Source: the human T2T-CHM13v2.0 reference genome, Homo sapiens
DNA: 64,000 nt
NCBI GenBank assembly: GCA_009914755.4
Contig: CP068257.2
Location: 25,280,001-25,344,000 of the forward strand
Direction of reading: 5' to 3'
Shown here in pieces: positions 9,470 to 11,126 of this stretch. The position numbers and the translations under genes are program-made. Each line of letters starts with the position of its first letter. Position 1 is the stretch's first letter. A model generated the notes under the pieces. The model saw nothing but the letters and a program-made list of their open reading frames with translations, ran no database searches and was not told the origin of the DNA.

Positions 9470-9758
9470 TTTTTTTTTTGAGACAGAGTCTCGCTCTGTC
9501 ACCAGACTGGAGTGCAGTGGCGTGATCTCGGCTCACTGCAATCTCTGCCTCCCGAGTTCAAATGATTCTCCTGCCTCAGCCTCCCGAGTAGCTGGGATTA
9601 CAGGTGTGTGCCACCACACCCAGCTAATTTTTGTATTTTTAGTAGAGACAGGGTTTCACCATGTTGGTCAGGATGGTCTTGATCTCCTGACCTTGTGATC
9701 TGCCCGCCTCAGCTTCCCAAAGTGCTGGGATTACGGGTGTGAGCCACTGCGCCCAGCC
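9470..9758 (-). mobile_element. Alu, full length, intron 6 (sense relative to the ADAMTS5 transcript)
   Basis: T10 then gagacagagtctcgctctgtcaccagactggagtgcagtgg...gggattacgggtgtgagccactgcgcccagcc. Confidence 0.9.
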
Positions 9759-10417
9759 ATAGGTGATTTTAAATGTAGCAACTGTTTACAAATTTGTAAA
9801 TTGCTGTATAACACTGACCATAAGAATAAAACTCTGCTATAGATTTAGAAAATGCTCACTTGTGAAAAATAAGGCATGTTCCATACACAAATATTATACA
9901 CATACACAAGGATTATAACATATATAACTAGAGGGACATTGATTCATATTAAGGGTTCTTGACTTATTCAAAAGCCTGAGTCAGAGGTATATGATCTTGA
10001 AACCCATCTCCACGGCTCATCAAAGGAATTCTTAAGTAAATCATAGAAAAATAGAAAAAGTTTTCTTGCTTTATGGTCTCCTTTACAATGCTGCTTAGGA
10101 AATACTAGTTGTTTTCATGGTTACTTTAAAGTTAAGGTCACACTTTGCCTTCCTTGACAGTGAGTTACACCTTTTACAGTGAGTTACACCTTTTAAATAT
10201 AGCTTTTAAAACATTTACTTGTTCTGTTTATAAAATAATTTTTATTCATTGTGTAAAGTTTGAAAATATAGAAGTTATAGAGATGAAAATAAAAACCTTC
10301 CAAAATCTAACTGACCCCAAACTAATAACTGTTTACGTCTGGCGTCCGCAGGCTTCATTCTACCAAATAATTTCCACCAGTACGCCTACTGCTTCTGGAC
10401 AGTTGGTGTGTAGTTAC

Positions 10418-10593
10418 CTTTGGAGAAAATACCACATAGTAGCCAGTGCCCTTGGCTCTGCAGGTCAGCTTGCACACATCCGCTGGCAGGACACCTGCAT
10501 ATTTGGGAACCCATTCCACAAAAGTTTTGACTCCTTTTGCATCAGACTGATAGCCATTTTTGGCCTCACACTGTTCATGACGAAATGATTTAC
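10418..10593 (-). CDS. ADAMTS5: ADAMTS5 exon 6 (Cys-rich domain, 176 nt)
   Basis: Acceptor tttctag|GTAAA at 10593 and donor CCAAAG|gtaact at 10418. Encodes (G)KSFRHEQCEAKNGYQSDAKGVKTFVEWVPKYAGVLPADVCKLTCRAKGTGYYVVFSPK. Confidence 0.93.
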
Positions 10594-10825
10594 CTAGAAA
10601 ACAAACATGTTTCAGTATTACCTTATCAGTTCTGAAACTTAGATATATTCTTGTGGGTTTAAATAGTTAATTTTAAGGGGAAGATGCAAACGTGTTTTTT
10701 TTATCCCACAGTCTCTTTACTCACCAATGCTGATGGATTTTATCTATACATAGAGTTCAAAATGGTGATTATTTATTCCAATTCTCTGAATATTGCTTAT
10801 AATAAAACTTAAAAATCACATATGT

Positions 10826-11126
10826 GGCTGGGCGTGGTGCCTCATGCCTGTAATCCCAGCACTTTAGGGGGCCGAGGAGGGTGGATCACAAGGTCAGGAG
10901 TGTGAGACCAGTCTGGCCAACATAGTGAAACCGCGTCTCTACTAAAAATAAAAAATAAAGAAAAAATAACCAAGTGTGGTGGTGTGCACCTGTAATCCCG
11001 GCTACTCAGGAAGCTGAGGCAGGAGAATCATGTGAACCCAGGAGGTGGAGATTGCAGTGAGCCAAGATTGTGCCATTGCACTCCAGCCTGGACAACAGTG
11101 TGAGACTCCATCTCAAAAAAAAAAAC
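10826..11126 (+). mobile_element. Alu, full length, intron 5 (antisense relative to the ADAMTS5 transcript)
   Basis: ggctgggcgtggtgcctcatgcctgtaatcccagcactttaggg...ctccagcctggacaacagtgtgagactccatctc(a)n. Confidence 0.9.

What the first reader, a model, noticed from the sequence alone, without database searches (positions are those of the whole stretch)
9470..11126. Exon 6 is bracketed by a closely spaced inverted Alu pair, a configuration favouring back-splicing or skipping
A sense-oriented Alu (9470..9758, intron 6) and an antisense Alu (10826..11126, intron 5) lie about 660 bp and about 230 bp from the two splice sites of exon 6 (10418..10593). Complementary Alus flanking an exon are the best-established cis determinant of exon circularisation and can also promote skipping. 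Exon 6 is 176 nt, not a multiple of 3. Linear skipping would frameshift within the Cys-rich domain and trigger NMD, while a circ(exon 6) product would be non-coding.
Basis: inference. Interest (0 to 1): 0.55.

Follow-up and report, generated by a model that had tools for sequence, protein, structure and literature searches.

The report
Ordinary inverted Alu pair around ADAMTS5 exon 6
Two old Alu retrotransposons really do sit in opposite orientation on either side of exon 6 of the human ADAMTS5 gene and could pair in the pre-mRNA, but this arrangement is common, shows no sign of selection, and nothing indicates that it actually makes a circular RNA or causes the exon to be skipped.

Summary
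The window holds human ADAMTS5 on the minus strand: 8 coding exons, 930 aa, all introns GT-AG. Exon 6 is 10418-10593, 176 nt. A sense AluS (9470-9758) is the only Alu in intron 6 (1943 nt). An antisense AluS (10826-11126) is the only Alu in intron 5 (687 nt). They lie 659 and 232 nt from exon 6. They can form about 255 bp of duplex (-444 kcal/mol; shuffled control -132), and this stem survives in the MFE fold of the 2.8 kb pre-mRNA segment. Skipping exon 6 gives a stop codon 5 codons into exon 7, which is NMD-eligible.

The layout meets the known cis requirements for Alu-driven back-splicing. However, it arises by chance in 7-14% of random placements, the flanking introns are short, and the antisense Alu carries U-tracts of the kind hnRNP C uses to repress circularisation. 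Both Alus are shared with macaque, absent from lemur, and evolve faster than the neighbouring intron. No paper names an ADAMTS5 circRNA, against 160 for other ADAMTS genes. No exon-skipped product is on record. The skipping claim conflicts with the experiments it rests on. Verdict: an ordinary, probably neutral feature of low interest.

The parts
9470..9758 (-). Full-length AluS element, sense relative to ADAMTS5, with its A10 tail at 9470-9479. It is the only Alu in intron 6. It lies 659 nt downstream of the exon 6 donor and 995 nt upstream of the exon 7 acceptor.
   Evidence: blastn to recalled AluSx consensus: 89.6% over positions 1-289. Two Rfam Metazoa_SRP sub-threshold hits at 9478-9624 and 9643-9757 on the minus strand. 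Orthologous copy in macaque L001 at 37591-37831; lemur L003 has an empty site; target-site duplication T(C/T)ACCT.
10826..11126 (+). Full-length AluS element, antisense relative to ADAMTS5. It is the only Alu in intron 5 and takes up 44% of that 687 nt intron. It lies 232 nt upstream of the exon 6 acceptor and 154 nt downstream of the exon 5 donor.
   Evidence: blastn: 82.5% to recalled AluSx over positions 1-289. Two Rfam Metazoa_SRP hits at 10827-10941 and 10969-11116 on the plus strand. Orthologous copy in macaque L001 at 36233-36547; lemur has an empty site; target-site duplication CAC(C/A)TATGTG.
10418..10593 (-). ADAMTS5 exon 6, 176 nt, starting in phase 1. It encodes residues 625-683, the N-terminal half of the Cys-rich domain. 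The donor AAG|GTAACT is the best match to consensus in the gene (8/9). The acceptor has the joint-weakest pyrimidine tract (0.59).
   Evidence: tblastn 100% identity over residues 625-685. ORF reconstruction and GT-AG check. Splice-site table. Pfam ADAMTS_CR_3 at 628-731. 98.9% identical to macaque and 96.6% to lemur.
10594..11280 (-). Intron 5, 687 nt (715 nt in macaque; 376 nt in lemur, which lacks the Alu).
8475..10417 (-). Intron 6, 1943 nt (1869 nt in macaque; 1656 nt in lemur, which lacks the Alu).
11115..11125 (-). U11 tract at the 5' edge of the antisense Alu in the pre-mRNA, which is the former poly(A) tail. Further U6, U6 and U5 tracts lie at 10944-10966, the former A-rich linker. 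These are candidate hnRNP C binding sites.
   Evidence: Tract scan. The role of such tracts in repressing IRAlu-driven back-splicing is taken from PMC13134581. Binding at this locus is inferred, not shown.

Best explanation
These are two independent, ancient AluS retrotransposon insertions that happen to lie in opposite orientation in introns 5 and 6 of human ADAMTS5. They are most likely neutral passengers.

Shown: each has its own target-site duplication. Both are present at the same sites in macaque and absent from lemur, so they inserted after the strepsirrhine split and before the ape / Old World monkey split. Both have diverged faster than the neighbouring non-repeat intron.

Shown by thermodynamic prediction only: in the pre-mRNA the two copies can pair into an imperfect stem of about 255 bp that loops out 1067 nt containing exon 6.

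Inferred: the usual outcome is normal linear splicing with exon 6 constitutively included. Intron 5 is short and is fully transcribed about 1.1 kb before the partner Alu has been made, so it can be removed before the stem forms. When the stem does form, it is mainly a substrate for the nuclear dsRNA machinery. That means A-to-I editing by ADAR1, unwinding by DHX9, and hnRNP C binding to the U-tracts of the antisense copy. Back-splicing of exon 6 into a 176 nt circle is mechanistically allowed (the 'proximal-Alu, short-intron' type) and may occur at trace level, but it is not expected to affect ADAMTS5 output. The pair is not expected to promote exon 6 skipping.
For: Identity, orientation and intron assignment of the Alus. 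Pairing: cofold -443.9 kcal/mol with 255 intermolecular bp, against -131.7 +/- 8.5 for shuffled controls, with a net gain of -246 kcal/mol over the two self-folds. All 255 bp are kept in the MFE of the 2846 nt exon 5 donor to exon 7 acceptor segment.

Age and neutrality: the macaque locus L001 has both Alus at orthologous sites, and lemur L003 has empty sites with intron lengths equal to human minus one Alu each (376 vs 387 nt, 1656 vs 1654 nt). Human-macaque identity is 85.7% and 88.7% for the two Alus, against 91.3-95.4% for flanking non-Alu intron and 96.6-98.9% for exons. The same ranking holds at non-CpG sites. The macaque intron-6 copy has lost 33 nt and the macaque duplex is weaker (-328 kcal/mol, 216 bp).

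Chance placement: 7-14% in the gene-level simulation.

No sign of an effect: exon 6 has the best donor in the gene. An assembled macaque mRNA (L002) carries the full 930 aa CDS even though macaque has the same Alu pair. The skip-6, skip-7 and skip-6+7 products are absent from the protein collection, while the full-length protein is present. Zero papers name an ADAMTS5 circRNA, against 160 for other ADAMTS genes. A review lists no ADAMTS5 alternative splicing.

General biology: inverted Alus within about 2 kb form edited dsRNA, including pairs that span an exon, where the mean separation was 1122 bp (PMC2533698; the separation here is 1067 nt). hnRNP C, DHX9 and ADAR1 repress IRAlu back-splicing. 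Not every inverted pair circularises. circRNA loci usually have very long flanking introns.
Against: On sequence alone the configuration is a favourable one. It has one across-intron pair and no within-intron competitor. The loop is short. The exon length of 176 nt falls within the reported median range for single-exon circRNAs, 169-253 nt. 'Proximal-Alu, short-intron' circRNAs are a recognised class. Miniature introns with 30-40 nt repeats are enough in plasmid assays.

The negative evidence is indirect. It rests on name searches of open-access text, an exact-match protein lookup, and no access to circBase, circAtlas or RNA-seq reads. ADAMTS5 is expressed at low levels in the cell lines most often profiled, so a tissue-restricted circle could have been missed. 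Faster-than-intron divergence of the Alus does not exclude a function that only needs 30-40 nt of pairing.
Confidence: 0.72

Rival explanations
1. The Alu-Alu stem brings the exon 6 donor and acceptor together, so an appreciable share of ADAMTS5 pre-mRNA is back-spliced into a 176 nt circ(exon 6) RNA. This would be a catarrhine-specific product that competes with linear mRNA.
For: All sequence prerequisites are met: an inverted pair across the flanking introns, 255 bp of pairing, no within-intron competitor and GT-AG sites. The pair is also kept in macaque. Exon length is within the range for single-exon circles, and the proximal-Alu, short-intron class exists.
Against: There is no named ADAMTS5 circRNA in 8 million papers, even though the osteoarthritis-circRNA literature constantly measures ADAMTS5, and 160 papers name circRNAs from other ADAMTS genes. 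The flanking introns are short, and the upstream one (687 nt) is complete before the partner Alu is transcribed. The antisense Alu carries U11 and U5-6 tracts that are hnRNP C-type repressor sites. The duplex has 18 G-U pairs and paired A/U tails, features reported to inhibit circularisation. The Alus are not conserved above the intron background.
Confidence: 0.1
2. The pair, or the antisense Alu alone, weakens recognition of exon 6, so it is skipped in a fraction of transcripts. This produces a frameshifted NMD substrate and lowers ADAMTS5 output.
For: The exon 6 acceptor has the joint-weakest pyrimidine tract in the gene (0.59). Skipping would give a premature stop 159 nt upstream of the last junction. 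More Alus flank alternative exons than constitutive ones genome-wide.
Against: In the only mechanistic study the antisense Alu acted from 24 nt away and lost its effect when moved 68 nt or more further. The exclusion zone is 80-150 nt, and here the distance is 232 nt. Downstream Alus had no effect, and pairing with a sense Alu counteracted skipping. The exon 6 donor matches consensus at 8 of 9 positions, the best in the gene. The skip-6 product is not on record. ADAMTS5 is not among the ADAMTS genes with reported alternative splicing.
Confidence: 0.05
3. The antisense Alu in intron 5 is itself exonised, using its U11 tract as a polypyrimidine tract and the 'uguccag|G' acceptor-like site. This would insert an Alu exon between exons 5 and 6.
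For: Antisense Alus are the main source of new exons (PMC11263572; PMC2533698). The element keeps its U11 tract followed by a CAG|G site.
Against: Introns 5 and 6 contain no in-frame, stop-free cassette exon with acceptable splice sites, so any inclusion would be a premature-stop product. Long U-tracts recruit hnRNP C, which blocks Alu exonisation. No transcript evidence was found.
Confidence: 0.04

Closest known systems
IRAlu-flanked circRNA loci of the proximal-Alu, short-intron type, for example ZKSCAN1 exons 2-3 and EPHB4 exons 11-12 (Liang & Wilusz 2014, PMC4201285; PASI class of Stagsted et al. 2021, PMC7819710)
   Same: Opposite-orientation Alus lie within a few hundred nt of the acceptor and donor of the enclosed exon. 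The flanking introns are short, the splice sites are canonical, and the two Alus can pair extensively.
   Different: Those loci are defined by an observed RNase R-resistant circle, and none is documented here. The enclosed RNA would be a single 176 nt exon, against 360 nt or more for the examples. ADAMTS5 exon 6 sits at ordinal position 6, not the favoured position 2. The antisense Alu keeps its long U-tracts.
Intronic Alu-driven alternative splicing, RABL5 exon 3 (Lev-Maor et al. 2008, PMC2533698)
   Same: An antisense AluS lies upstream of a conserved exon, with a sense Alu within 2 kb that can pair with it.
   Different: In RABL5 both Alus are in the same upstream intron, and the antisense copy is 24 nt from the exon. 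Here they are in different introns and the antisense copy is 232 nt away, beyond the distance at which the RABL5 effect is lost. In RABL5, pairing relieved skipping rather than causing it.
Edited intronic inverted Alu dsRNA (ADAR1 substrates). This includes the 8% of edited intronic Alus whose nearest inverted partner is in a different intron (PMC2533698)
   Same: The inverted partner is 1067 nt away, against a mean of 1122 bp for that class. The imperfect duplex is long, with perfect helices of up to 31 bp.
   Different: Editing at this locus was not, and could not be, checked with the tools available.

Membership tests
Alu SINE (dimeric, 7SL-derived) | About 300 nt dimer of two 7SL-related monomers with an A-rich linker and a 3' poly(A) tail | tested here: met
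   Full-length alignment to Alu consensus sequences. Two Metazoa_SRP hits per element. A10 tail at 9470-9479 and A11 tail at 11115-11125.
Alu SINE (dimeric, 7SL-derived) | Retrotransposition hallmarks: target-site duplication, and an empty site in an outgroup | tested here: met
   Target-site duplications flank both elements. Lemur L003 lacks both, with a single-copy target at each site.
Alu-dependent circRNA-producing locus | Opposite-orientation repeats in the introns immediately flanking the circularised exon(s) | tested here: met
   9470-9758 (minus strand) in intron 6 and 10826-11126 (plus strand) in intron 5.
Alu-dependent circRNA-producing locus | The repeats can base-pair, and pairing across the introns is not outcompeted by pairs within an intron | tested here: met
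   255 bp, -444 kcal/mol, retained in the MFE of the 2.8 kb segment. Each flanking intron holds a single Alu. Thermodynamic prediction only.
Alu-dependent circRNA-producing locus | An observed back-splice junction (RNase R-resistant, with divergent-primer product) | not testable with these tools
   No RNA-seq or circRNA database access. Indirect negative evidence: zero papers name an ADAMTS5 circRNA, against 160 for other ADAMTS genes. Supplements searched in one tissue survey held no ADAMTS entries.
Alu-dependent circRNA-producing locus | Long flanking introns (a statistical hallmark, not strictly defining) | tested here: not met
   Introns 5 and 6 are 687 and 1943 nt. circRNA-flanking introns are described as 'exceptionally long' (PMC6376117).
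Alu-induced alternatively skipped exon (Lev-Maor type) | Antisense Alu in the upstream intron within roughly 100-150 nt of the affected exon | tested here: not met
   The distance is 232 nt. The effect was lost beyond about 24+68 nt, and the exclusion zone is 80-150 nt.
Alu-induced alternatively skipped exon (Lev-Maor type) | The exon is observed to be alternatively spliced in primates but constitutive in species lacking the Alu | not testable with these tools
   No transcript data. Indirect evidence: the skip-6 product is absent from the protein collection, a review lists no ADAMTS5 splicing variants, and a macaque mRNA assembly includes exon 6.
ADAR-edited inverted-Alu dsRNA | An inverted Alu partner within about 2 kb on the same transcript | tested here: met
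   1067 nt between the arms. The criterion is taken from PMC2533698.
ADAR-edited inverted-Alu dsRNA | Observed A-to-G mismatches clustered in the Alus in RNA compared with DNA | not testable with these tools
   No RNA reads or editing database were available.

The most novel reading that the evidence does not exclude
The catarrhine-specific Alu pair makes ADAMTS5 exon 6 a regulated back-splicing unit in cartilage or synovium. When dsRNA repressors (hnRNP C, DHX9, ADAR1) are low, for example under inflammatory stress, pre-mRNA would be diverted into a stable 176 nt circ(exon 6). That would lower output of linear aggrecanase-2 mRNA. The circle might also be translated from its 133-codon ORF, which spans the back-splice junction. 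This would be a primate-only post-transcriptional brake on a key osteoarthritis protease, absent from the mouse models used to study it.
Probability: 0.03. Interest if true: 0.5.

Novelty: already known. Interest (0 to 1): 0.12.

Why it matters
If exon 6 circularisation or skipping really occurred at a meaningful level, it would be a primate-specific layer of control over ADAMTS5, the main aggrecanase in osteoarthritis, and rodent models would lack it. As things stand, this is one of several thousand human exons that happen to lie between inverted Alus. The general principle has been established since 2013-2014. The elements are standard annotated repeats, and nothing at this locus sets it apart. 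Its practical value is limited to a cheap, well-defined RT-PCR or junction-read check.

Tried and rejected
(1) The Rfam gathering-threshold scan of the whole window found nothing. The relaxed scan was needed to see the 7SL-like halves of the Alus. The sub-threshold mir-1268 and mir-3135 hits there reflect Alu-derived family resemblance and are not miRNA genes.

(2) My first translation of exon 6 was out of frame. The exon starts in phase 1, and this was corrected through tblastn and ORF reconstruction.

(3) Literature searches for an ADAMTS5 circRNA under many spellings returned nothing. Papers that combine ADAMTS5, circRNA, host gene and back-splicing all treat ADAMTS5 as a downstream marker, not as a host gene. 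Searches for 'ADAMTS5 pre-mRNA', 'ADAMTS5 intron' and 'ADAMTS5-derived' returned only papers on knockout-mouse tissue.

(4) Supplement searches: the OA-cartilage circRNA-seq paper and the cardiac circRNA paper hold no supplements as text. The 90-tissue alternative back-splicing paper's held supplements contain no ADAMTS entries. These results are uninformative.

(5) Jeck et al. 2013 could not be read because the PMC id is not held.

(6) I considered using search for homologous proteins to look for back-splice or skip-junction peptides in transcriptome assemblies. I rejected it because junction paths form very short branch contigs in de Bruijn assemblies and would not yield called proteins. Sensitivity would be near zero for a search costing about 13 CPU-hours.

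(7) I tried to identify human 'isoform X1'. The look-up of encoding contigs found no gene with exactly the 930 aa product. Enumerating in-frame cassette exons in introns 5 and 6, and N-terminal extensions, gave no candidates. I abandoned this as unrelated to the Alu pair.

(8) I had expected exon length to count against circularisation. It does not: 176 nt lies within the reported medians for single-exon circles.
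Full report
WHAT IS THERE. The window carries the whole coding region of human ADAMTS5 on the minus strand. I used an ADAMTS5 protein sequence recalled from memory only as a probe. It located eight coding blocks by tblastn. After refining the boundaries, the blocks join into one uninterrupted 2793 nt ORF of 930 codons, and every intron has GT-AG ends. The translation is an exact match to XP_054180301/2, 'ADAMTS5 isoform X2 [Homo sapiens]', on a 45.09 Mb contig. Intron 5 (11280..10594) is 687 nt and intron 6 (10417..8475) is 1943 nt. 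Exon 6 encodes residues 625-683, inside the Pfam ADAMTS_CR_3 Cys-rich domain at 628-731.

THE ALUS. The repeat finder reports inverted arms of 139 nt (81% complementary), 131 nt (82%) and 30 nt (87%) linking 9470-9759 with 10825-11124. blastn against recalled AluSx, AluY and AluJo consensus sequences shows two full-length AluS-like elements. One is at 9473-9758 on the minus strand, 89.6% identical to AluSx. The other is at 10826-11121 on the plus strand, 82.5% identical. Because those consensus sequences came from memory, I looked for independent confirmation. A relaxed Rfam scan gives two Metazoa_SRP (7SL) hits per element, one per monomer, on opposite strands. Relative to the gene, the intron-6 copy is sense and the intron-5 copy is antisense, lying 659 and 232 nt from exon 6. 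The one slip is in the proposed check: 11281 is the last base of exon 5, not the exon 6 acceptor, which is 10593.

CAN THEY PAIR? In the pre-mRNA strand the two copies cofold at -443.9 kcal/mol with 255 intermolecular base pairs (124 G-C, 113 A-U, 18 G-U; longest perfect helix 31 bp). Shuffled partners give -131.7 +/- 8.5 kcal/mol, and the net gain over the two self-folds is -246 kcal/mol. In the MFE fold of the 2846 nt segment from the exon 5 donor to the exon 7 acceptor, all 255 pairs are kept, so exon 6 sits in a 1067 nt loop. This prediction is thermodynamic and ignores kinetics and proteins.

COMPETITION. The window holds 12 Alus. Each of introns 5 and 6 has exactly one, so no within-intron inverted pair competes. 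The other possible partners are 4.4-6.6 kb away. The intron-3 Alus (16382-16676 plus / 16965-17252 minus, 288 nt apart, -456 kcal/mol) would probably sequester each other. On sequence alone, this is a favourable layout under the across-intron versus within-intron competition model summarised in PMC11263572. The intron-6 Alu can also pair with two intron-7 Alus, which would bracket exon 7, itself 176 nt long. Exon 6 is therefore not unique even within this gene.

IS THE PLACEMENT SPECIAL? No. Scattering 10 Alus at random with random orientation over the ADAMTS5 introns gives at least one internal exon with an inverted pair within 1 kb on each side in 13.7% of 20,000 trials, and within 700 nt in 7.4%. 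Using the published density of about 0.42 Alu per kb next to constitutive exons (PMC2533698), a rough Poisson estimate puts about 4% of internal exons in a comparable configuration. That amounts to several thousand exons.

EVOLUTION. I fetched the orthologous loci of a macaque (L001) and a lemur (L003). Macaque has both Alus at the same positions and in the same orientations, with introns of 715 and 1869 nt. Lemur has neither, and its introns are 376 and 1656 nt, which equals the human lengths minus one Alu each. The three-way alignment shows target-site duplications around both human elements and single-copy empty sites in lemur. The two insertions are therefore independent events. They occurred after the strepsirrhine split and before the ape / Old World monkey split.

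Human-macaque identity is 85.7% and 88.7% within the Alus, 91.3-95.4% in flanking non-repeat intron and 96.6-98.9% in the exons. The ranking is unchanged when CpG sites are excluded. The macaque intron-6 copy has lost 33 nt, and the macaque duplex is weaker (-328 kcal/mol, 216 bp). Nothing suggests purifying selection on the pair.

DOES ANYTHING HAPPEN? I could find no direct evidence. No paper among about 8 million open-access texts names a circRNA from ADAMTS5 under any spelling I tried. The same kind of search finds 160 papers naming circRNAs from other ADAMTS genes, such as ADAMTS6, 13 and 16, so the search method has power. ADAMTS5 is measured routinely in the osteoarthritis-circRNA literature, but always as a downstream marker. 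A review of ADAMTS regulation lists alternative splicing for ADAMTS2, 4, 6, 7, 9, 13 and 17, not for 5. Its 'ADAMTS5 isoforms' are proteolytic fragments. The exact translation products expected from skipping exon 6 (629 aa), exon 7 or both are not among about 15 billion public protein sequences, whereas the full-length protein is. An assembled macaque mRNA (L002) encodes the full 930 aa protein even though macaque carries the same Alu pair. These negatives are indirect, since I had no access to circRNA databases or reads.

WHAT THE LITERATURE SAYS ABOUT SUCH PAIRS. For back-splicing, inverted repeats are enough in plasmid assays. [quoted passage not shown] The most abundant and conserved circles do not depend on proximal Alus, although a lower-expressed proximal-Alu, short-intron class exists (PMC7819710).

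hnRNP C binds the U-stretch at the start of antisense Alus and represses IRAlu-driven circularisation, and mutating that stretch increases it (PMC13134581). The intron-5 Alu carries U11 plus U6, U6 and U5 tracts. DHX9 and ADAR1 also oppose the pairing (PMC11263572). Exon length is not an obstacle, because single-exon circles have median lengths of 169-253 nt.

On kinetics, my own inference is as follows. Intron 5 is complete about 1.1 kb of transcription before the partner Alu is finished, so it can be removed before the stem forms.

In RABL5 both Alus were in the same upstream intron and the antisense copy was 24 nt from the exon. Moving it 68 nt or more further away restored constitutive splicing. 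Downstream Alus had no effect, and pairing with the sense copy counteracted skipping. The genomic exclusion zone for antisense Alus is 80-150 nt (PMC2533698; PMC11263572). Here the distance is 232 nt. Exon 6 also has the best donor in the gene (8 of 9 consensus positions), although its acceptor polypyrimidine tract is the joint weakest.

The same study supports a different expectation. Inverted Alus within about 2 kb form dsRNA that is edited. In 8% of edited intronic Alus the nearest partner lies in another intron, at about 1.1 kb on average for the close cases. That matches this geometry of 1067 nt.

CONSEQUENCES IF IT DID HAPPEN. A 176 nt circle is not necessarily non-coding. It would contain a 133-codon ORF that crosses the junction twice, but nothing suggests translation. 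Introns 5 and 6 contain no in-frame, stop-free Alu cassette exon.

VERDICT. It is unsupported as a statement of what actually occurs, and it is contradicted for the skipping part. The best reading, with confidence about 0.7, is that these are two ordinary, neutrally evolving, catarrhine-shared AluS insertions. Their main molecular consequence, if any, is transient intronic dsRNA handled by ADAR1, DHX9 and hnRNP C, with at most trace back-splicing. The kind of feature is already well known, and interest is low. A simple junction-read or RT-PCR check would settle the remaining possibility.

Noticed in passing
window 8299-8474, with Alus at 9473-9758 (-), 4808-5091 (+) and 4459-4679 (+): Exon 7, which is also exactly 176 nt, is likewise bracketed by inverted Alus. 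The same intron-6 Alu can pair with the two intron-7 Alus (-424 and -227 kcal/mol). The intron-6 Alu therefore has two alternative loops, and exon 6 is not unique in this gene.
   Followed up: partly
window 16382-16676 (+) / 16965-17252 (-) in intron 3; 29294-29502 (-) / 29922-30113 (+) in intron 2: Two tight inverted Alu pairs lie within single introns, with gaps of 288 and 419 nt; the first gives -456 kcal/mol. These are classic ADAR substrates. The intron-3 pair probably sequesters the only other partners available to the intron-5 and intron-6 Alus.
   Followed up: partly
window 10418-10593 (circularised in silico): A circ(exon 6) RNA would carry a 133-codon ORF starting at the ATG at exon position 80 and crossing the back-splice junction twice before reaching a stop. 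Separately, exons 4+5 sum to 468 nt, a multiple of 3, so a circ(E4-E5) would stay in the natural reading frame (lengths).
   Followed up: no
whole CDS, window 2470-44778 (-): The window's protein exactly equals human 'ADAMTS5 isoform X2' (XP_054180301/2) on a 45,090,682 bp contig. Yet look-up of encoding contigs reports no gene with exactly this product, perhaps because a longer isoform X1 is the one on record. I could not identify X1. No in-frame cassette exon in introns 5 or 6, and no N-terminal extension, explains it.
   Followed up: partly
window about 8447 (codon 692, exon 7) and about 44649 (codon 44, exon 1): The window encodes Pro692 and Ser44, where my recalled reference sequence had Leu and Arg. 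The Leu692 version of this allele is not in the protein collection. The differences could be polymorphisms or errors in my memory.
   Followed up: partly
window 33152-33284 (exon 2): Exon 2 is the published coding-exon myogenic enhancer 'PRI 1' of ADAMTS5, which contains E-boxes bound by MYOD (PMC2364661).
   Followed up: no
window 9500-9626, 9708-9759, 10967-11094: There are sub-threshold Rfam hits to mir-1268 and mir-3135 inside both Alus (22-41 bits against gathering scores of 80-83). These families are Alu-derived, so the hits reflect repeat content and are not miRNA genes.
   Followed up: yes
L001 37591-37831 (macaque intron 6): The macaque orthologue of the intron-6 Alu has an internal deletion of about 33-40 nt relative to human. 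The macaque Alu-Alu duplex is correspondingly weaker, at -328 kcal/mol and 216 bp against -444 kcal/mol and 255 bp in human.
   Followed up: yes
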